Below are positions 11,631 to 53,598 of a DNA stretch of 64,000 nucleotides, in pieces. The notes under the pieces were generated by a model. That model did no database searches and was not told where the DNA came from. It worked only from the letters and a program-made list of their open reading frames with translations. Each line of letters starts with the position of its first letter. Position 1 is the first letter of the stretch. Where the stretch lies: the NCBI GenBank assembly GCA_000004985.1, contig GG738918.1. One strand, written 5' to 3'. The position numbers were made by a program, and so were the translations under genes. The stretch is from Naegleria gruberi. Its lineage: Eukaryota.

Positions 11631-13247
11631 TCAACATGTCTTTTCTTGGTAAAATGGCAAAGTCCAAAAACTGGTAGACTTTGTGTGGGATTTTTGAATT
11701 TCTTCATCATTTCTAATGGATAAATCTATTAGTTTGAATGCTCTTGAATCATGACTCAAGGCCACCAAAGCAATCTCTTTGTCTCTTCTCCAGCTTGGAT
11801 CGACATACATGAAAGGACAGCCATTATTGAGAGCTTTGATAATAATTTCACGATCCATTTTCCAAGAATTTTGGACAAACTTGAGAGCTATGCCATTTTG
11901 TCTGACAGCTGTCAATACAACTTCTCTTTGGTCCTTGAATTTAGAGTAAATATATTGTAAAGACGTTCCATCAGTTTGTACAGCATCCATCACAATGTCC
12001 AAGGTCTGAATCAAACTGGATTGAATTGAATTTGGGTTCTGCCCTATAGCCATTTTAACAATCTCAATATTTTCCCTAATTGATGCTGAGAAATAGTGTA
12101 ATAGAAGGCCATTTCTTTGGACAACCTGTCGAGCAATATCAACATCATCGTTCAATGGATAATCAATGTTTCTCATTACATTGGGGTTAATTTCTATCAA
12201 TTGGAGAATGAAATCCTTGTCTGTTCTCAAACTCGAATCAGCATATACAATATTGGATGGAGATTGTTTCACAGCTTCAATGAAAACTGTTTTGTCCTTA
12301 AGAAAGTTTCGAGCATATTGCAAATTGGTTGGATCTATTTTCAGTGCTTCAAGTACCATTTCCTGACTGATGATATTTTGTGGAATGCTATTTAATTTGA
12401 AAAAGCCTTCCTTGACAACCATAAGAGCTAGATCTGGATTTGCTTGCATTTCTGAAGATAATTTTTTGTAATCCAAGGGCCTTTTCTTAATCCAATACTT
12501 TAAAAACTCAATATTACTAATCGCATAAAGAATTGAAGAATTATTCCTCACAGCAGCACAAAGAATTTCAAAATCATTCATGAATTTTCCATCTGCACAT
12601 GTCAGAGCCGTTGCATTATGTCTTACAACTTTTAAAACCACGTCTCTATCAGATTTGATCGAATCATCAAATGCCATAAGTGATCGTAAGACCTTTCCTA
12701 AAATACAGGCAATCTCCTTATCTTTCCTCAATCCATCTGAAAGACATGATGAAATGGCCGAAAGAATATAATCACGAGTACAATATTTAGTGGCCACTTG
12801 CTTAATCCACTCCTTATCTGAGAATAAGTTGTGCTTTTTAAAATGATTTTCAATATATCTCGTATGCAATTCAAAGTGATCATTGCAATATCTAAACACA
12901 TGAAGAGCAACTTGCTTCTCGAATTGAATTTCTGGAAGGAAACGAATAATCTTCCAATCCATCAGTGCCAAAGAGATGAGAAATTGTCGATCCCTTTTCA
13001 AATCAATCAATTGCTCTGAAAATACCAATTCTCGTAAGCATTCGGGATTTGTTTGTACCATCATACGAATTTCTACCTTCCTCCGATAGGAAATATCAGA
13101 GATTTTGCAAAAAAGCCTCTCGGATAGATAGTCAGCATCGAGAATACAACAACATCTCCCATTACCATTTGAAAAAGTATGGAATTTTTTCTTTAAATTT
13201 TGAAAGATCTCAAATTTTAATATTGTAAAATTATTATTTTCAATCAT
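11631..13247 (-). CDS. DUF4116-type repeat protein
   Basis: 538 aa of repeated roughly 35-aa modules of the form 'DREVVLTAVRQNGIALKFV...DREIIIKAL' and 'DKDFILQLIEINPNVMRNI'. The same repeat type occurs inside the kinase gene at 58066..61119. Confidence 0.55.
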   Translation of the reverse strand: MIENNNFTILKFEIFQNLKKKFHTFSNGNGRCCCILDADYLSERLFCKISDISYRRKVEIRMMVQTNPECLRELVFSEQLIDLKRDRQFLISLALMDWKIIRFLPEIQFEKQVALHVFRYCNDHFELHTRYIENHFKKHNLFSDKEWIKQVATKYCTRDYILSAISSCLSDGLRKDKEIACILGKVLRSLMAFDDSIKSDRDVVLKVVRHNATALTCADGKFMNDFEILCAAVRNNSSILYAISNIEFLKYWIKKRPLDYKKLSSEMQANPDLALMVVKEGFFKLNSIPQNIISQEMVLEALKIDPTNLQYARNFLKDKTVFIEAVKQSPSNIVYADSSLRTDKDFILQLIEINPNVMRNIDYPLNDDVDIARQVVQRNGLLLHYFSASIRENIEIVKMAIGQNPNSIQSSLIQTLDIVMDAVQTDGTSLQYIYSKFKDQREVVLTAVRQNGIALKFVQNSWKMDREIIIKALNNGCPFMYVDPSWRRDKEIALVALSHDSRAFKLIDLSIRNDEEIQKSHTKSTSFWTLPFYQEKTC

Positions 13248-45462: not shown

Positions 45463-46633
45463 ATGACGAAATCAAATCATCATAAATTCAGGTTACCACT
45501 TGTTTTATCCGTTTTATTAGTAGTGGTAGTGATGGTAAATTGTCATCGTTCTATTATCAAAGATAAAATCAAAGGAGGAGAAAATATGAAAAATATTAAA
45601 TTGATGGATCATTCTAGTCATCCGTATGGATTTTTCGAATCGGAACAATTTAAAGAAAGAAGTGGATTGATTTCGAATTATTTAATAGTAACAGCTTCAA
45701 AGAATTTTGAAAAGGATTTGCAATATTCACATGTACATTTGAAGAATGAAAGTTTGCCATTTGCTCCGAATCAGAAATTGAGTGGAAATTTAATTAGAGT
45801 GACAAGTGTCAGTTCTCATTTTCATGTGTTGGCACCACATGGAAGATGTTGTCAGCCTTCTACTACGAATTCTTTCACAGACACACCTTGTAAGGAAAGA
45901 ACAAGTGATACAGCCAAGCTCAATGATTGTATTGTAGCAACCAATGCAGGATTTTTTGATGTGGCCAATGGCTATTGTTTGGGAAAGGTTATTTCAAATG
46001 GAAAAGTTTTAAATGATTATGGGAGAGTTCATCCAAATGCTGCCTTTGGATTAATTGATGATGGCAAAGGAAATGCTCAATATGTTTTTGGATATTTGAA
46101 TCAAACTGATTATGAAAAATTGAAAATCACTCAACTAGTTCAAGTAGGTAATTCTTCAATGTTAACTAGTAATTTATTTTACAATCTTTAAAACAAAGGG
46201 AGTTGTATGGTTGGTGAGAGAAGGAAAGTCCTACATTAATGAATCAGTTAAAATTGAAAAAACTTCAACTGGATTTATAGAAGAGGCTGCTCCTCGTGTT
46301 GCCATTGGAAACGATGCGAATGGAAATTTGCTGATTCTTCAAATGGATGGATATGAACCACTCAAATGGGGTTTGAATTTGTATCAATTTACTGATTTAT
46401 TGCTCTCCCTTGGATTTAAGAATGCTATAAATGTTGATGGTGGAGGTTCTGCAACTACCTATATTAAGGATCACGACAAGTTATTTGTAAGTAATTCTCA
46501 AGTAGCAAATTCAATCTTAAATTTATAGAATACATGTTCTGACACATGTTTAGAGTTTAAGGGGAACATGTGTCCTAATTCTTATCTCGGAAGATGTGAA
46601 CGACATGTAACGACAATCTTTTGCATGAAATAA
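45463..46633 (+). CDS. Secreted NAGPA-like phosphodiester glycosidase ('uncovering enzyme' domain) with a C-terminal Cys-rich EGF-like tail
   Basis: Three exons, about 45463..46143, 46199..46486 and 46529..46633, with GTAGGT/GTAAGT donors. There is a signal peptide. Motifs include VATNAGFFDVANGYCLGKVISNGKV and NVDGGGSATTYI, the latter being the NAGPA-family GGGSxT motif. The last exon reads NTCSDTCLEFKGNMCPNSYLGRCERH. Confidence 0.6.
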
Positions 46634-46828: not shown

Positions 46829-49800
46829 ATGTTCATACTTGTGTATTTTCAAACTCTACCAACATCAAAAAAACCTTTCAATCTCATTTCAATGATGAAG
46901 GTTCTCTCACCCTTACAACTAATTTCAATCATTAGCTGTTTCGTCCTGTTTCTATTCATCACAACCAACGCTCTAATAAATCCCTCAAATCCATCTTCTG
47001 ATACAACAACATGGGATCTGGACAATGAAATTTGGTTTGCTCAATCCGCACCACTAACAGGTCCTTCCAAGAGGTAAGTATTGGAATTTCATACAAATTT
47101 CATTAATTGGAAATTTCCCGCCCAATTTTAAATTCAAATATTTAAAAAAAATATTAACATCGTGATGACCACATAAAAACAACATGTTCTTGTTTGGTGG
47201 TTCATAGACTTGGAATTGAAATGCGGGATGGTATTTTGACTGCCTTTAATGAATTCAATGCACTTGGAGGTGTTTTTGGAGGTAAAAAGTTGAAACTCTT
47301 AACTCTAGATGATGCCTACGAACCAACCAACACAAAGGTGAATACCAATTTGCTTCTCTATAATATTACTCCTCCGAATACGTCAACATTGAATCAGGCT
47401 ATTTTCAATAATAGTATCGCATTGGATGAGGTAAAAGGAAGAAAATACTTTGGCTTGATTGGTTTTGTTGGTACTCCAACAGTGCAGAATGTTTTTACTG
47501 ATGTGCTGAGTCAGGTTTGGCCTCTGATTGGATCATTCACTGGAGTTGGTTGGCTTCGAACACCTTTCTATCCAAATATTATTAATATTCGTGCTTCGTA
47601 TGATGACGAAACTGCTGCTATGGTTGAGTGGCTGGTAAATGTCAAATTGATAAGAAGGATTAGTATCATGTATCAGAATGATGCTTTTGGTAATGCTGGC
47701 TTGTCAGGAATTAATAGATCATTGGTGAAGAGATTGAACATTTCGCTCTGTTCTAGTGGTACCTTCCCAAGAAATACTCTGCAGGTTGAGGATGCTTTCA
47801 ATACAATTGGTAAATGCAATCCAGAGGCAATAGTTTTGATTGGAACCTATGCTCCTCTTTCGAAATATATAAGATTGGTTAAGGATGTAGCCTTCTCCCC
47901 TTATAATTCAACACTTGGATACAGCAAGGCCAATCAGATTACTTTCCTTACTGTGAGTTTTGTTGGATCATCAGCATTGACAGAAGATTTATCCTCCTAT
48001 CAACCTCCTTCTCTTGCCTATGGAAAGACCTATTATACGGACAATGTTGTAATTTCTCAAGTGGTTCCAAGTCCAATGGATACCAGCTATCCCATTGTTT
48101 CATCCTATCAACGTTCTAGAAAGGAGTATGCTAAAAATTTGGGACTTGATCCATCACTTGTGTCGTTTACTTTTATTGAGCTAGAGGGTTATTTAGTAGG
48201 AAAACTTGTGTTTACTGTGCTCAAAAACATGATAGGATCATTAACAAGGTCTAACTTTATTGCTAGTATATATTTCGACTTTACATCTGGTGTTAGTGAT
48301 GTAACAAATGCTGGTGGTTATTTCAATTTTGAATCGGTTCAAGTTGGTAGATACAAATATTGCAATGCTGTCAATTTGTACGATCATTTCCTTTCACCTA
48401 GCAATCAAACAGTAGTATCTGGTTCATGTTCTGATAATTGTAATCAAGGACTTAAAATTATTTACCTCAGTAATATAGAGCTCAAGAACAATACTAACAT
48501 TAGATTTAATATTTTCAGGGACTTTTCGTGGTATGACACCCAAAAATGTATTTCAGACACTGCTCAAATTCAAAAACAAATTATAATAGGTCAATCTATT
48601 TTATCAACCTCTTTGAGAGATCAATTTATTACTGTGGGTATTAATGCTGCTCTTTCAAAAAGAAATAGTAATTATACAAGAAATATTGAACTCAAAACAC
48701 TATATCACGATGATTCAGCATCAATGTTGAAAAATGTTGTAGAACTGAAAACTCTCCATGAAAGTGTTGCATTTGTAGGGGTTTCTGCTGAGAGTATTAA
48801 TTTGGACAGTTCAAATACCAATTCAACCATAGATATTAGAGGATATTCAGAATTTTCAAATATTCCTTTATTTGGGGTGCGTTCAACAAATAGTATGGTA
48901 TTGAGAAATACATTTGTTTCATCTTTTATTCATGTATTTCCATCAATAATGGATCAATTGGGTACCGTAATAGATTATAGCATGAAAAATGGAGAGAATA
49001 GAATAAGTATCGTCTATAGCAGTTCAAATTCAAATTCAGTCGAGGTTAGACAATTGTTAAAGTCTATTCTGGATTCGATTGGTATAGAGACCGATAGCGA
49101 GGTTGATGCCACTGAAACAATTTCATTAGACTCAATTATTAATCAACTCAGTTCTAACACTGCTAACCCTCACTCCATCTTTCTTACTTTGAGTAATCCA
49201 GACCAAATTCTCAGTATCATCTCACAAATCAAAAAGACCTATTCGAATTCTAGCCCACTATTTAGAAAGGGATTATCTGTTTATTTGATCAATTCACTAT
49301 TTGATTCGAGTGTTGAAGCTATTTTTTCAACACCACTTTCTTTGATTGTCGATGAAAACTTGAGTGTAAAGTATGTGAGCCATCTTCCAGGATCCTACAA
49401 CTCTACTCTTCAAGTAATAACAGATTTTGAAAATTCAATGGATACATATTTTCCTTCAATTAATTATAGAAATAATACTGCTTATCTTGAGGGCTATATT
49501 ATTGGAGCAATGATCTCTGCATTTATCGATAGTAGTGGAGGTAATTTAGACGCTAAAGGGCTATTGAACTACATGTATACTGTACAGCAAGTAACTTCTG
49601 CTGGTGTAAGCTTTGGAAAGCTGTCTGTTGGATCCAGCCCTTGTTCATTAGGATTAAGAACAAACTATATCTATGCTTACAATCAAAAATCACAGACTTT
49701 TTCTGAATTCAATATTCGAAACTATGATATGAATGGGTGTGGTCTTGTTAAATATAAGAATAGCAAAAAGCGTGCTGCTCCTACAATAGATATTTCCTCA

Positions 49801-52164
49801 TTAGAACAACCTTTGGTGTTTGCCAGATTAATACCTTTCTCTGGTGATGAATCATTGAGTTCTTCAAAACTAAGTTTACTAAATGACGTAATCGATGCAG
49901 ATGACTACTCGAAAGGACTTTCATCTTACATAAACGTATACAATACCAAAACTACTAACCAGAAAATTCAAATAAGAACAGAATATTTCGGGTTTACAGA
50001 TAGTAGATGGAGTCTTGAAACTAAGGTGAAAAATATGATAACTAGACAGAAGGTATTTGCATTTGTAACTGGTTTTTCTAGTGATGAAGATTTTGCGACA
50101 ATTGACAATATCAAACAAATTCTTACAACATATGATACGCCAATGCTTACAACTTCCAATTCTTTAGAATTGCGAAAACCATTCTCCAAATATTTTATCA
50201 ATATGAAATCCTCTGTGTTAGATGAAGTTGCATCTCAAATTTCTTATTTCAAGAATTATGGATCTATTGCAATTATTTATCACAATATTCCTTACTGGAC
50301 CAACCAATCAATTCCATTAATAGCAGAGTATTTGGAATATAATAGTATTTCAATATCTTTAATACAAGGCTTTAGTGGCAGCAGTGATTTTAGTTCATTG
50401 GGAGTTAAACTTCAAGAAGGAAATATTCAATCAATTGTTTTGATATCTGGGTCATCAATGTCAGCTTCATTCATATCTTCCTTGATTATGTATCAAACAA
50501 CATATACGCCTAATATTGGAATTCTATCGGAAGCATATAATAATGACTTTGTTTCAAAGACCTTCACTGTTAACAATTACAAGTCTGCTCTATTTGCTCA
50601 TAACTTCCTCTATTTGTCCACAATTACCTTTGCTCCAAAGATTTACAGCTCTGATATTTGTTCATTGTCAACCAGTTCTCTACATACTGACAAACAGAAT
50701 TCTTTTATCTCACTATTCATGTCTAACTACAATTACAATAGTACAGCAACACACATGACATTGGAAGGTTACTCTACAGGATTTTTCATTGAAACACTCC
50801 TTAATAGAATTTACCAAGAAATGGGAATTACGAAACTGAGTACTGATGATCTATTTTCAGGAATTTATTCTGCTCAAACATTTGATATTTCTGGATTGAA
50901 TACTTTTGGACCATTTGGGTTGGAATGCTCCAGTCAATCAAGTCAATTAACAACAAATCAAACTTCTTCTTCTTGTAATCAGAAAAGTACAACAACTTGT
51001 GATTGCAACCAAGCCCCAAGAAAAGTCTACTTGAGCAGAGTCAATATCGTTCCAACAGAAAATTATTACACTTTCACTGATATTGATTATGCATTCGATT
51101 TCAGCAGTTCATGTGGTGTGAGTGTTGTCAAACCTGTGCTATCGACTACTGCAATTGTTTTGATTTCATTGGCTGGGTTCTTTGTCATTCTGCTCGTTAT
51201 TATTGCCATATCAATCGCTTATGTTTGTATTTCAAGATCAGAAAGTAATACCAAGAATGCACCTAAAACTGGTAACATTTGCTGCTGCTTTACAGATATT
51301 CAGAACTCGACCGTTTTATGGGAAAAGTGTGAAAAGGGAATGAGAGAAGGTCTCAAATTGCACAATGATGTTCTGCGTAATCAACTCAACTTATTCAAAG
51401 GTTTTGAGGTCAAGACTCAAGGAGACTGTTTCTATGTCGTATTCAAGGATCCACTGGATGGAATAGATTGGGCAATGAGCTGTCAACACGAATTAATGTC
51501 CATTGCTTGGCCATCCGAACTATTACAAATGTATGATTGTAGAACAGAGTTTAATAATGAAACCAAGGAGATAGTTTGGAATGGAATTAGAGTTAGAATG
51601 GGCTTGCATTTTGGTTATGCAGAGAAGATCTTTGACAAGGTAGTGAACAGACCAGACTACTTTGGTAATACTATCAATGCAGCTGCTAGAATTGAGGCTT
51701 CTACCCAAGGTGGTCAAGTTTTAATTAGTGAAGATATGTTCTCAGAGTTGTGGAAAATTCATGGAACTAATTTATTCAAATCCATCACTTTAAAGGAAGA
51801 TAATCAAGCAACTTATTTGGAAACCATTAGTCCTTCATTTAAAAGTGTGAATGGTATAGGAGAAAGCAAAAAATCCAAGGATTTCCAGGCAATATTCAGC
51901 ACAAAAGGAAGATCTATCAAATATAGTGAAAATACAGAATCAACTAAATCAGAAGATAGAAAGTTGAAATACCATGCAAACGATCTTGGAGAATTCAAGC
52001 TTAAAGGATTGCAAGGAATGATAAGATTATTTGAAATCAAATCGGATAAAATATTGGAGAGAAAATACAGTGAAAATTTGAGAAATACTGAAGTAACAAA
52101 ATTAGATATGTTAAAACAAGGTTCCCAACTAAAGTCAACTCGTACCATCCTTCCTCTAAACTAA
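46829..52164 (+). CDS. Receptor-type class III nucleotidyl cyclase. Domain order: signal peptide, large ectodomain of about 1250 aa with tandem periplasmic-binding-protein/ANF-receptor-like (VFT) modules, single TM, cyclase catalytic domain, C-terminal tail
   Basis: Two exons, about 46829..47073 and 47205..52164, with a GTAAGT donor at 47074 and an acceptor at ttcatag|A. ATG 46892 is an alternative start. The signal peptide is MMKVLSPLQLISIISCFVLFLFITTNA. The PBP-like start is RLGIEMRDGILTAFNEFNALGGVFGGKKLKLLTLDDAYEP. The TM is AIVLISLAGFFVILLVIIAISIAYVCI. The cyclase domain reads ICCCFTDIQNSTVLW...VKTQGDCFYVVF...RVRMGLHFGYAE...GNTINAAARIEASTQGGQVLISEDMF. No kinase-homology domain lies between the TM and the cyclase. 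Confidence 0.75.
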
Positions 52165-52596: not shown

Positions 52597-53598
52597 ATGA
52601 CTAAACTACCACTGAGTGTCCTCTGCACTCTCTGTTTCACATTATTTCTCTTCCTCCACTCTATCAACTGTTTAGTGATATCTCCAAAAAAGGGAATGGC
52701 ATTTCCAAACTCTGGAGCTCCACAAACTAATTCTTACAAAGATTTGGCGCAATCGTTGAATGTTGCTTGGTGTTATAATTGGGGAAATTCTGCTCCTTCC
52801 ACTGGACTGCCATCTGTCACTTCATATGTTCCACAAATTTGGGGAAGTGGTTCAATTAATAATGCAACCATGACAAAGTTGGCAAATTTGAATCAACAAG
52901 GAATGGATAATGTCTTGTTGGGATTTAATGAACCTGATTTGAGCGAGCAATCGAATTTGACTCCACAACAAGCAGTTAATTTGTGGCCGAAATTGATGGA
53001 AACTAAACGAAAGTTGGGTTCTCCTGCTATGGCTGGTTATGCTCCTTCCACTGATTCATGGCTTTCTCAATTCATGACTCTTGCAACTACATCTAAATTG
53101 CAAGTTGACTTTATTGCTGTCCATTGGTATGGAACTCCACAATATGGCTCATCATTTCTTCAAATGGTAGACGAAACTTACAAGAAATACAAACTCCCAA
53201 TTTGGGTAACTGAATTTGCAGCTGCCGATTGGAGTGCAACTGCTTCAAAACCAGCTCCATACACTCAGAAAGATGCCATCAACTTTATGAATGTGACAGT
53301 GAGAGGTTTATTAGAAAGATCATATGTGGAAAGATTTTCATGGTTTGCACCAATTAATCCAAAGGATCCCATCATGGGATTCAGTGCTGTGTTCAATGAG
53401 GATGGAAGCTTGACTGAGGTTGGAAAATTATATGCCTCCTTGGGTGTTAGTAATGATAATAATAATAATGGAAATCCAGCAATTTCAAAGAAAGTTTCAA
53501 CTTCAACTAGAACTTCAATGGGAAGTGGAGTGAATGTTATCTCTTTGAATGTCTTGATGATTATTCTTGCCTTATTTGTACTAATTGTAAATTATTAA
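52597..53598 (+). CDS. GH128-like (Glyco_hydro_cc) beta-1,3-glucanase-like protein, secreted and probably GPI-anchored
   Basis: The signal peptide is MTKLPLSVLCTLCFTLFLFLHSINC. The family motif LLGFNEPDL and the catalytic-like region IWVTEFAAADW are present. The C-terminus is a Ser/Thr tract followed by the hydrophobic tail VISLNVLMIILALFVLIVNY, a GPI signal-like feature. Confidence 0.65.
   Translation: MTKLPLSVLCTLCFTLFLFLHSINCLVISPKKGMAFPNSGAPQTNSYKDLAQSLNVAWCYNWGNSAPSTGLPSVTSYVPQIWGSGSINNATMTKLANLNQQGMDNVLLGFNEPDLSEQSNLTPQQAVNLWPKLMETKRKLGSPAMAGYAPSTDSWLSQFMTLATTSKLQVDFIAVHWYGTPQYGSSFLQMVDETYKKYKLPIWVTEFAAADWSATASKPAPYTQKDAINFMNVTVRGLLERSYVERFSWFAPINPKDPIMGFSAVFNEDGSLTEVGKLYASLGVSNDNNNNGNPAISKKVSTSTRTSMGSGVNVISLNVLMIILALFVLIVNY

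What the first reader, a model, noticed from the sequence alone, without database searches (positions are those of the whole stretch)
46829..52164. Receptor-type class III cyclase with a tandem PBP/ANF-receptor-like ectodomain fused directly to TM and cyclase, a trypanosomatid-like architecture in an amoebozoan
The gene predicts a roughly 1730-aa protein. Its domain order is signal peptide, about 1250 aa of extracellular sequence, one TM, then a cyclase catalytic domain only about 25 residues after the membrane. There is no kinase-homology domain. The ectodomain begins with a canonical ANF-receptor/PBP type-1 fold start (RLGIEMRDGILTAFNEFNALGGVFGGKKLKLLTLDD). It shows a second similar module further on (…VAFVGVSAESINLDSS…RGYSEFSNIPLFGV). 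The canonical dictyostelid cyclases are the 12-TM ACA, the ACG osmosensor, the response-regulator ACB, and sGC/GCA. None of these has a VFT/PBP ectodomain. Metazoan receptor GCs always interpose a kinase-homology domain. VFT(x2)-TM-cyclase is the layout of kinetoplastid receptor adenylyl cyclases. This gene would therefore be a candidate ligand-gated (amino acid, peptide or ion sensing) cyclase, possibly unrecognised in social-amoeba cAMP/cGMP signalling.
Basis: partly seen in the sequence, partly recalled or inferred. Interest (0 to 1): 0.75.

Follow-up and report, generated by a model that had tools for sequence, protein, structure and literature searches.

The report
Naegleria receptor-type adenylate cyclase gene
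This is a real two-exon gene for a membrane receptor that makes cAMP, built like the trypanosome receptor cyclases; it belongs to Naegleria gruberi, a relative of trypanosomes, not to a social amoeba, so the layout is expected and not surprising.

Summary
It has two exons and encodes 1733 aa. The domain order is signal peptide, about 1345 aa of ectodomain, one TM helix, then a class III cyclase domain about 13 residues after the membrane. There is no kinase-homology domain. The ectodomain holds three tandem LIVBP-type periplasmic-binding-protein (Venus-flytrap) modules, not two. The first module is strongly conserved. The second and third are degenerate. The cyclase keeps all six canonical catalytic residues with the Lys/Asp adenylyl signature. 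Its closest solved relatives by far are the Trypanosoma brucei GRESAG4 receptor adenylate cyclases.

The taxonomic premise is wrong. The product is 100% identical to Naegleria gruberi XP_002670180.1 (NAEGRDRAFT_53734, "predicted protein"). Naegleria is a heterolobosean in Discoba, the clade that also contains the kinetoplastids. It is not an amoebozoan. Homologues with fewer or equal numbers of modules (judged from protein length and match position) occur in N. fowleri, N. lovaniensis, Willaertia and Acrasis. A large cyclase repertoire in Naegleria is already published.

This is therefore an uncharacterised but already catalogued member of the receptor-type adenylate cyclase family. The third flytrap module is a modest variation. 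Interest is low to moderate.

The parts
46829..47073 (+). Exon 1 (aa 1-81 plus two bases of codon 82). The first ATG is at 46829. The likelier start is ATG 46892 or 46895 (M22/M23).
   Evidence: The NCBI model P0001 starts at M23 (MKVLSP...).
46892..46972 (+). Signal peptide (aa 22-48, MMKVLSPLQLISIISCFVLFLFITTNA, followed by LINPS).
   Evidence: Hydropathy scan. The n/h/c layout is read directly from the sequence. The cleavage site is inferred.
47074..47207 (+). Intron, 134 nt, GTAAGT...CATAG, phase 2.
   Evidence: The junction is validated by P0001 and P0002 and by the unbroken alignment to 4kv7.
47208..52164 (+). Exon 2 (aa 82-1733 plus the stop codon). It is one uninterrupted ORF that carries most of the ectodomain, the TM helix and the cyclase.
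47006..48462 (+). Module M1 (aa 60-500; the span includes the intron). It is a well-conserved LIVBP-type PBP / Venus-flytrap module ending in a Cys-containing CSDNCNQGLK motif.
   Evidence: Pfam Peripla_BP_6 E 2.8e-16. PDB sequence hit 4kv7 E 1.4e-39. The AF2 model of aa 50-949 (M1 plus M2) has Foldseek best hit 4kv7, E 3.9e-24, TMt 0.84; the output does not say which module aligned. hhalign to VFT1 of two-module receptor cyclases E 3.7e-44.
48475..49797 (+). Module M2 (aa 505-945).
   Evidence: ANF_receptor E 2.4e-4, below threshold. No direct PDB sequence hit. A profile of M2 hits 4kv7 at E 2.9e-4 in register. hhalign gives M2-M3 97% (E 2e-11), M2-V1 E 2.7e-17 and M2-V2 E 3.1e-14. The AF2 secondary-structure order repeats that of M1.
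49798..51138 (+). Module M3 (aa 946-1392). It is the membrane-proximal degenerate PBP-like module and ends in CDCNQAPRK and C1384.
   Evidence: Peripla_BP_6 E 2.7e-7 (31.0 bits against a cut-off of 31.7) and PF25493 E 0.004. Foldseek matches to LIVBPs at about E 1e-11 to 1e-12. hhalign M3-V2 E 2.6e-16.
51148..51234 (+). Single transmembrane helix (aa 1396-1424).
   Evidence: Hydropathy peak 3.3. Helix 456-481 in AF2 model 2.
51262..52047 (+). Class III cyclase homology domain (aa 1434-1695). Catalytic residues are D1445 and D1488 (metal), K1484 and D1565 (adenine), and N1572 and R1576 (transition state).
   Evidence: Pfam Guanylate_cyc E 2.6e-22. PDB 1fx4 and 1fx2 E 1.6e-23 and 1.8e-22. Foldseek 1fx4 E 4e-15, TMt 0.77. 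Residue positions. All six are invariant in alignment A3.
51508..51585 (+). Insertion at the position of the trypanosomal delta-subdomain (aa 1516-1541, WPSELLQMYDCRTEFNNETKEIVWNG). It is shorter than in T. brucei and shares the WNG(L/I)RVR motif.
   Evidence: Alignments to 1fx4/1fx2 compared with Ma1120. The delta-subdomain is described in PMC6027212.
51802..51963 (+). Low-confidence Ser/Thr/Lys-rich loop (aa 1614-1667) inserted before the last beta-hairpin of the cyclase fold. It is absent from T. brucei GRESAG4.
   Evidence: pLDDT below 50 for model residues 675-728. The alignment to 1fx2 resumes at DLGEFKLKGLQG.
52048..52164 (+). C-terminal tail (aa 1696-1733) and TAA stop codon.

Best explanation
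Window 46829-52164 (+) is the Naegleria gruberi gene NAEGRDRAFT_53734. It encodes a type-I membrane, receptor-type class III adenylate cyclase that is homologous to the kinetoplastid receptor adenylate cyclases (ESAG4/GRESAG4).

Shown here:
- A signal peptide is followed by three tandem LIVBP-type periplasmic-binding-protein modules. M1 is conserved. M2 and M3 are degenerate.
- One TM helix follows the ectodomain.
- A 13-residue linker carries the conserved APK motif.
- A single cyclase homology domain carries both metal Asp residues, the Lys/Asp adenine-specifying pair and the Asn/Arg transition-state pair.

Inferred:
- One chain carries every catalytic residue and class III active sites form at a dimer interface. 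The enzyme should therefore work as a head-to-tail homodimer that converts ATP to cAMP.
- A small extracellular ligand, or another environmental cue, acting on the distal flytrap M1 would change the geometry or dimerisation of the ectodomain.
- M2 and M3 would act as a stalk that transmits this change through the TM helix to the cyclase dimer.
- The disordered Ser/Thr-rich loop and the delta-subdomain-like insertion are candidate intracellular regulatory sites.
For: Identity and taxon: 100% identity to P0001 = XP_002670180.1 of N. gruberi, lineage Discoba > Heterolobosea.

Architecture.

M1 is a PBP: 4kv7 E 1.4e-39 by sequence and Foldseek TMt 0.84 for the M1+M2 model.

The three modules are homologous and in register: hhalign on Naegleria-only profiles gives M1-M3 95% (E 2e-8), M2-M3 97% (E 2e-11) and M1-M2 61% (E 8e-5).

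Cyclase: the best PDB matches are T. brucei GRESAG4.3 and 4.1 by sequence and by fold. The six catalytic residues are present and invariant among homologues.

Homology of the whole layout: the profile of M3 + TM + cyclase aligns in a single stretch (for example profile positions 127-656 to residues 538-1055 of P0165) to proteins of about 1200-1300 aa. Those proteins are Peripla_BP_6 + PF25493 + one TM + Guanylate_cyc. The two that were tested (P0113, P0115) have cyclase domains matching GRESAG4 at E 5e-50 to 6e-53.

Module correspondence: M1 matches their VFT1 at E 3.7e-44 and M3 matches their VFT2 at E 2.6e-16. Both M1 and P0115 have the same ranked bacterial relatives (4kv7, then 3lop, then 4m88).

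The dimer-activation model for trypanosome receptor cyclases is taken from PMC6027212.
Against: No expression, activity or ligand data exist for this gene. The mechanism is carried over from trypanosome enzymes, whose ligands are themselves unknown (PMC7719234).

M2 and M3 fall below Pfam thresholds when scanned alone and may not bind ligand.

This protein matches PF25493, the trypanosome-type membrane-proximal domain, only at E 0.004 (16.6 bits against a cut-off of 27.2). Several close homologues carry a precomputed PF25493 hit.

The delta-subdomain is only partly present.

The two-module comparison proteins come from unnamed metagenome contigs. That they are kinetoplastid is inferred from their architecture and their similarity to GRESAG4.

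The AF2 models rest on an alignment of only 8 sequences (pLDDT 77 and 69).
Confidence: 0.8

Rival explanations
1. The resemblance is convergent. Heteroloboseans fused bacterial-type LIVBP modules to a cyclase independently, so the likeness to kinetoplastid receptor cyclases is analogy and not shared ancestry.
For: M1 is remarkably close to a planctomycete PBP (4kv7, E 1.4e-39). This would fit a separate, fairly recent bacterial acquisition. PF25493 is below threshold in this protein. The module number differs (three against two). The delta-subdomain is shorter.
Against: The kinetoplastid-type VFT1 has the same ranked bacterial relatives (4kv7, 3lop, 4m88). M1 matches V1 at E 3.7e-44. A single collinear HMM alignment spans flytrap, TM and cyclase. 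The juxtamembrane APK motif and the WNG(L/I)RVR motif are shared with T. brucei. The two lineages are both in Discoba.
Confidence: 0.15
2. The protein is a guanylyl cyclase or a catalytically dead pseudo-cyclase, and acts as a receptor or scaffold only.
For: The Pfam family PF00211 covers both adenylyl and guanylyl cyclases. A 54-residue disordered loop interrupts the end of the fold. Paralogue P0002 appears truncated within the cyclase domain.
Against: K1484 and D1565 form the adenylyl signature; guanylyl cyclases have Glu/Cys-type residues (established knowledge of class III cyclases). Both metal Asp residues and the Asn/Arg pair are intact and invariant. The terminal beta-hairpin DLGEFKLKGLQGMIRLFEI is retained and modelled with confidence.
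Confidence: 0.07
3. The ectodomain is not a ligand sensor. The flytrap modules serve only as a glycosylated spacer or dimerisation scaffold, and activity is set by membrane, osmotic or pH stress, as has been proposed for trypanosome cyclases.
For: M2 and M3 are degenerate. No ligand is known for any receptor cyclase of this family, and trypanosome enzymes respond to acid, hypotonic and proteolytic stress (PMC6027212). The ectodomain carries 17 N-glycosylation sequons.
Against: M1 is conserved at a level that suggests a working binding protein (E 1.4e-39 to a bacterial solute-binding protein). Its residues are conserved across Naegleria paralogues and orthologues, with long invariant stretches in alignment A1.
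Confidence: 0.3
4. The model is an artefact that fuses two neighbouring genes, an extracellular PBP protein and a separate cyclase.
For: No transcript data were available.
Against: The sequence from aa 83 to the stop codon is one uninterrupted 1656-codon ORF. Orthologues in N. lovaniensis, N. fowleri and Acrasis, and metagenomic relatives, have the same fused layout.
Confidence: 0.02

Closest known systems
Kinetoplastid receptor-type adenylate cyclases (T. brucei ESAG4/GRESAG4, Leishmania RAC-A/B, Bodo saltans RACs)
   Same: Type-I topology with a signal peptide, an LIVBP-type flytrap ectodomain, a single TM helix and a short APK-containing linker. A single class III catalytic domain with Lys/Asp specificity and no kinase-homology domain. 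An insertion at the delta-subdomain position. The catalytic domain is the best PDB match. The distal module matches theirs at E 3.7e-44.
   Different: Three flytrap modules and an ectodomain of about 1345 aa, against two modules and about 800-850 aa. A shorter delta-subdomain. An extra disordered loop of about 54 aa before the last hairpin. PF25493 is below threshold in this protein. The host is a free-living heterolobosean. The gene has one intron.
Heterolobosean paralogues and orthologues (N. gruberi XP_002673284.1 and XP_002674098.1, N. lovaniensis C9374_011605, an N. fowleri unnamed product, Acrasis kona 'adenylate cyclase' KAL0489977.1, Willaertia magna KAL9650595.1)
   Same: Same family and same layout. 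Identity is 45-49% for the closest paralogue (XP_002673284.1) and the N. lovaniensis and N. fowleri orthologues, and 38% over 21% of the query for XP_002674098.1.
   Different: Lengths run from 863 to 1918 aa, which from length and match position implies one to three flytrap modules. This was not checked domain by domain. None has been characterised experimentally.
Bacterial Leu/Ile/Val-binding-protein family (Peripla_BP_6; PDB 4kv7, 3lop, 4m88, LivJ)
   Same: M1 shares sequence (E 1.4e-39 to 4kv7). The M1+M2 model shares the two-lobed fold (TMt about 0.84).
   Different: The bacterial proteins are free periplasmic proteins that feed ABC transporters. Here the module is tandemly triplicated and tethered to a cyclase. 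The ligand is unknown.
Metazoan receptor guanylyl cyclases (ANP receptor GC-A and related)
   Same: A flytrap (ANF_receptor) ectodomain, a single TM helix and a class III cyclase that acts as a dimer.
   Different: The metazoan enzymes place a kinase-homology domain and a coiled-coil between the TM helix and the cyclase, have one flytrap module, and have Glu/Cys guanylyl specificity. None of these features is present here.

Membership tests
Class III nucleotidyl cyclases (PF00211) | Cyclase homology domain fold | tested here: met
   Pfam E 2.6e-22, 79.7 bits against a cut-off of 21.9. Foldseek match to 1fx4 and 1fx2 with TMt 0.77.
Class III nucleotidyl cyclases (PF00211) | Six canonical catalytic residues: two metal Asp, two substrate-specifying residues, and transition-state Asn and Arg | tested here: met
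   D1445, D1488, K1484, D1565, N1572 and R1576, aligned to the T. brucei equivalents and invariant in A3. Lys/Asp predicts adenylyl specificity (established knowledge).
Class III nucleotidyl cyclases (PF00211) | Enzymatic formation of cAMP from ATP | not testable with these tools
   Needs an enzyme assay.
Receptor-type adenylate cyclases of the kinetoplastid kind (ESAG4/GRESAG4) | Topology of signal peptide, large ectodomain, single TM helix and one C-terminal cytosolic cyclase domain, with no kinase-homology domain | tested here: met
Receptor-type adenylate cyclases of the kinetoplastid kind (ESAG4/GRESAG4) | Ectodomain built of LIVBP-type flytrap modules (two in trypanosomatids) | tested here: met
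   The fold is met for all three modules. The number differs: three here against two.
Receptor-type adenylate cyclases of the kinetoplastid kind (ESAG4/GRESAG4) | Membrane-proximal domain matches Pfam PF25493 (Peripla_BP_A-cyclase) | tested here: inconclusive
   This protein scores E 0.004, 16.6 bits, below the 27.2 cut-off. Homologues P0003, P0005-P0008 and P0026 carry precomputed PF25493 hits. Profile-profile comparison of M3 with V2 gives 98.7%, E 2.6e-16.
Receptor-type adenylate cyclases of the kinetoplastid kind (ESAG4/GRESAG4) | Catalytic domain closest to the trypanosomal enzymes and carrying the delta-subdomain insertion | tested here: inconclusive
   Closest in the PDB by 13 orders of magnitude in E-value. 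The insertion sits at the right position and shares WNG(L/I)RVR, but it is about 18 residues shorter than in T. brucei. Whether it forms a delta-subdomain was not resolved.
Receptor-type adenylate cyclases of the kinetoplastid kind (ESAG4/GRESAG4) | Monophyly with kinetoplastid receptor cyclases in a rooted phylogeny | not tested
   No named euglenozoan full-length sequences could be retrieved. The afdb50 library was unavailable. The two-module relatives found are unnamed metagenome proteins.
Metazoan receptor guanylyl cyclases | Kinase-homology domain between the TM helix and the cyclase | tested here: not met
   Only 13 residues separate the TM helix from the cyclase fold in a continuous ORF. 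There is no Pkinase hit.
Metazoan receptor guanylyl cyclases | Glu/Cys-type guanine-specifying residues | tested here: not met
   Lys1484 and Asp1565.
   The window is Naegleria gruberi, Discoba > Heterolobosea.

The most novel reading that the evidence does not exclude
The receptor-adenylate-cyclase layout (flytrap modules, one TM helix, Lys/Asp cyclase with a delta-type insertion) is treated in reviews as a trypanosomatid hallmark. On this reading it was already present in the common ancestor of Heterolobosea and Euglenozoa. Heteroloboseans would keep a longer three-flytrap form whose distal module still looks like a working solute-binding protein. Free-living, culturable Naegleria would then be a practical system for finding ligands of this orphan receptor family.
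Probability: 0.5. Interest if true: 0.4.

Novelty: new member of a known kind. Interest (0 to 1): 0.27.

Why it matters
No extracellular ligand is known for any receptor adenylate cyclase of the trypanosome type, although these enzymes matter for parasite social motility, transmission and immune evasion. A homologue in a free-living, non-pathogenic relative offers a simpler place to look for ligands and to study how signals cross the membrane. Its distal flytrap module is close to bacterial solute-binding proteins, which helps that search. It also pushes the likely origin of the layout back before kinetoplastids. It does not reveal a new signalling route in social amoebae, because the gene is not from one.

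Tried and rejected
1. The dictyostelid or amoebozoan origin was rejected. The product is 100% identical to a Naegleria gruberi protein.
2. A kinase-homology domain hidden in a missed exon was rejected. The TM helix and the cyclase are 13 residues apart in one ORF.
3. The ectodomain with two modules was rejected in favour of three.
4. An hhalign run that included metagenomic P0007 gave inflated M1-M2 scores (E 1e-42). The second module of P0007 is M1-like. I re-ran with Naegleria-only profiles and report those lower figures.
5. Two word-index protein searches, one with the cyclase alone and one with alignment A3, were nearly empty and gave no named kinetoplastid proteins.
6. The Foldseek search against afdb50 was not available, so no named AlphaFold models of full-length trypanosome cyclases were compared.
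7. Cluster look-up of the two-module relatives returned no names.
8. The Naegleria genome paper could not be read.
9. Direct PDB sequence searches with M2 and with M3 found nothing.
10. I looked for other cyclases or functionally linked genes in the window and found none.
11. I did not try to call ligand-contact residues in M1. No ligand-bound template alignment was available from the tools.

Full report
**1. What is in the sequence**

The + strand between 46829 and 52164 carries a short ORF (46829-47077) followed by a 1656-codon ORF (47194-52164). Joining them at a GTAAGT donor (47074) and a TAG acceptor (47207) removes a 134-nt intron. The resulting CDS is 5202 nt and encodes 1733 aa with no internal stop.

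The junction is independently supported in three ways:
- The public model of the same gene uses it.
- A paralogue is continuous across it.
- The alignment of the N-terminal module to the bacterial binding protein 4kv7 runs straight through it without a gap.

Hydropathy shows only two hydrophobic segments, at aa 22-52 and aa 1386-1427. The first, MMKVLSPLQLISIISCFVLFLFITTNA, has the shape of a cleavable signal peptide if translation starts at M22 or M23. The NCBI model starts at M23. This does not affect the mature protein.

**2. Domains**

Pfam on the whole product gives Peripla_BP_6 (E 1.8e-29, four stretches) and Guanylate_cyc (aa 1434-1597, E 1.2e-20). It gives no kinase family.

Scanned in thirds, the ectodomain gives these hits:

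| Segment (aa) | Pfam hit | E-value | Note |
|---|---|---|---|
| 50-520 | Peripla_BP_6 | 2.8e-16 | above threshold |
| 500-960 | ANF_receptor | 2.4e-4 | sub-threshold |
| 940-1392 | Peripla_BP_6 | 2.7e-7 | 31.0 bits against a cut-off of 31.7 |
| 940-1392 | PF25493, trypanosome-type 'Peripla_BP_A-cyclase' | 0.004 | weak |

Profile-profile comparison of the three segments, using Naegleria sequences only, shows that they are homologous and in register. M1-M3 gives 95% (E 2e-8), M2-M3 gives 97% (E 2e-11) and M1-M2 gives 61% (E 8e-5). An earlier run that included a metagenomic relative gave much stronger M1-M2 scores. I discount that run, because the second module of that relative is M1-like.

AlphaFold2 models were built from 8-sequence alignments:
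- The model of aa 50-949 has pLDDT 77 and pTM 0.73.
- The model of aa 940-1733 has pLDDT 69.
- Both show the alternating beta-alpha pattern of two-lobed binding proteins, repeated three times.
- Foldseek against the PDB returns Leu/Ile/Val-binding proteins first for the M1+M2 model (4kv7 E 3.9e-24, TMt 0.84). It does not report which module aligned.
- Foldseek returns LIVBPs for the module-3 part of the second model at about E 1e-11 to 1e-12.

By plain sequence, M1 matches 4kv7 at E 1.4e-39. M2 and M3 have no direct hit. A profile of M2 reaches 4kv7 only at E 2.9e-4, in register.

So the ectodomain of about 1345 aa is one well-preserved flytrap followed by two degenerate ones. Each module ends in a conserved Cys-containing C-x-CNQG-like motif.

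**3. The cyclase**

Thirteen residues after the TM helix (RSESNTKNAPKTG) the cyclase fold begins.

The best solved relatives are the T. brucei receptor adenylate cyclases GRESAG4.3 and 4.1 (E 1.6e-23 and 1.8e-22). The next family, mycobacterial Ma1120, scores 8e-10. The fold search gives the same order.

The six canonical class III residues are all present: D1445 and D1488 (metal), K1484 and D1565 (adenine-specifying), and N1572 and R1576 (transition state). They align to the T. brucei equivalents and are invariant in the family alignment. Lys/Asp predicts an adenylyl cyclase. All residues on one chain predicts a homodimer (established knowledge of class III cyclases).

Between alpha3 and beta4 there is an insertion at the position of the trypanosomal delta-subdomain. 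It shares WNG(L/I)RVR with T. brucei. It is about 15 residues longer than the same region in Ma1120 and about 18 residues shorter than in T. brucei (delta-subdomain described in PMC6027212).

A 54-residue loop of low confidence, rich in Ser, Thr and Lys (aa 1614-1667), precedes the final hairpin DLGEFKLKGLQGMIRLFEI.

**4. Whose gene it is**

The product is 100% identical over 1711 aa to a 'predicted protein' of Naegleria gruberi. Its identifiers are EFC37436.1, XP_002670180.1, NAEGRDRAFT_53734 and UniProt D2W0I8, and it lies on a 222-kb scaffold. PF00211 and PF13458 are already precomputed for it.

Naegleria is in Discoba > Heterolobosea. Discoba also contains Euglenozoa and hence the kinetoplastids (established knowledge). 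It is not an amoebozoan.

Relatives with the same layout occur in several places:
- two further N. gruberi proteins, one at 49% identity and one at 38% over a fifth of the query;
- N. lovaniensis and N. fowleri (45% identity);
- Willaertia magna;
- Acrasis kona, where one is annotated 'adenylate cyclase';
- metagenome contigs.

Their lengths range from 863 to 1918 aa, which implies one to three flytrap modules.

**5. Relation to kinetoplastid receptor cyclases**

An exhaustive HMM search with the profile of M3 + TM + cyclase found 2156 cluster representatives at E below 1e-30.

Among them is a set of proteins of about 1200-1300 aa. These have a single TM helix at residues 750-890. Their Pfam layout is Peripla_BP_6 + PF25493 + Guanylate_cyc. 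The two tested, P0113 and P0115, have catalytic domains that match GRESAG4 at E 5e-50 to 6e-53. This is the canonical layout with two flytrap modules described for trypanosomatids (PMC6027212).

They come from unnamed metagenome assemblies, so their kinetoplastid origin is inferred.

The Naegleria profile aligns to them in a single collinear stretch from mid-M3 through the TM helix into the cyclase (for example P0165, profile positions 127-656 to residues 538-1055).

Profile-profile comparison gives:

| Naegleria module | Module of the two-module proteins | E-value |
|---|---|---|
| M1 | VFT1 | 3.7e-44 |
| M3 | VFT2 | 2.6e-16 |
| M2 | VFT2 | 3.1e-14 |

The distal module of the two-module proteins has the same ranked bacterial relatives as M1 (4kv7, then 3lop, then 4m88).

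I read this as homology of the whole layout. M2 and M3 would be a duplicated membrane-proximal type of module.

**6. Mechanism**

Shown: topology, folds, catalytic residues and family relationships.

Inferred:
- The enzyme makes cAMP as a head-to-tail homodimer.
- The distal module M1 binds a small solute, or otherwise senses the medium.
- M2 and M3 act as a stalk.
- A change in ectodomain geometry or dimerisation is passed through the single helix and the short APK linker to the catalytic dimer. This is the model proposed for trypanosome enzymes.
- The disordered loop and the delta-like insertion are candidate sites of intracellular control.

The main rival is that the ectodomain is a scaffold and that activity follows membrane, osmotic or pH stress. 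This cannot be excluded, because no ligand is known for any member of the family.

**7. Literature and novelty**

Naegleria's large cyclase complement is published. The pangenome paper counts at least 81 cyclases (PMC9928731), and the Euglena genome paper notes cyclase subfamilies shared with N. gruberi (PMC6366073).

Reviews call receptor-type cyclases 'a hallmark of trypanosomatids'. The largest phylogenetic survey of these enzymes reaches only as far out as Bodo saltans (PMC7719234).

No paper in the searchable library links Naegleria with receptor-type or PBP-containing cyclases. The Naegleria genome paper itself could not be read.

The gene is thus catalogued but uncharacterised. The kind of protein is known. 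The third flytrap module and the heterolobosean host are modest extensions.

**8. Surroundings**

The neighbouring genes are unrelated:
- a two-ORF NAGPA-like phosphodiester glycosidase upstream;
- a secreted Glyco_hydro_cc protein downstream;
- an ORF with CNH, Vps39, DUF4116 and kinase domains;
- an EGF-repeat protein;
- an RGS protein, a DUF4116 repeat protein and a short-chain dehydrogenase.

The window contains no other cyclase.

**Verdict**

Novelty is a new member of a known kind. Interest is about 0.27.

Noticed in passing
window 47006-48462 (module M1): M1 is unusually close to a planctomycete solute-binding protein (PDB 4kv7, Rhodopirellula baltica; E 1.4e-39). The distal module of kinetoplastid-type receptor cyclases has the same top three PDB relatives in the same order. 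This may point to the bacterial source lineage of the eukaryotic module.
   Followed up: partly
window 51802-51963 (aa 1614-1667): A disordered Ser/Thr/Lys-rich loop of about 54 aa is inserted before the last beta-hairpin of the cyclase fold. A comparable insertion is present in P0003, P0004, P0007 and P0008. It is absent from T. brucei GRESAG4. It could be a phospho-regulatory loop.
   Followed up: partly
P0002 (N. gruberi XP_002673284.1), C-terminal 130 aa: The closest paralogue's public model diverges right after GGQ in the cyclase domain and lacks the terminal DLGEF.LKGL hairpin. This is probably a mis-predicted 3' exon or a decaying copy.
   Followed up: no
window 45463-46528 (+): Two adjacent ORFs (242 aa and 105 aa) carry the N-terminal and C-terminal halves of a NAGPA phosphodiester glycosidase domain. 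They are probably one secreted protein split by a very short intron or a frameshift around 46190-46210.
   Followed up: no
window 52597-53598 (+): An ORF with a signal peptide, a Glyco_hydro_cc catalytic core (E 5e-53) and a hydrophobic C-terminus. It looks like a membrane- or GPI-anchored glycosidase.
   Followed up: no
window 58027-61119 (+) and 11631-13247 (-): One ORF combines CNH, Vps39_1, DUF4116 and protein kinase domains. A separate ORF consists of seven DUF4116 repeats (E 3e-70).
   Followed up: no
L002 (metagenome contig ERZ21831265 ctg80042l), 2001-5789: An intronless receptor cyclase with two flytrap modules lies among genes that are all on the same strand. This fits kinetoplastid-style polycistronic organisation.
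   Followed up: partly
window 46829-46891: The first in-frame ATG adds 21 residues (MFILVYFQTLPTSKKPFNLIS) ahead of a canonical signal peptide that starts at the tandem ATG ATG (46892/46895). The true start codon is uncertain.
   Followed up: partly
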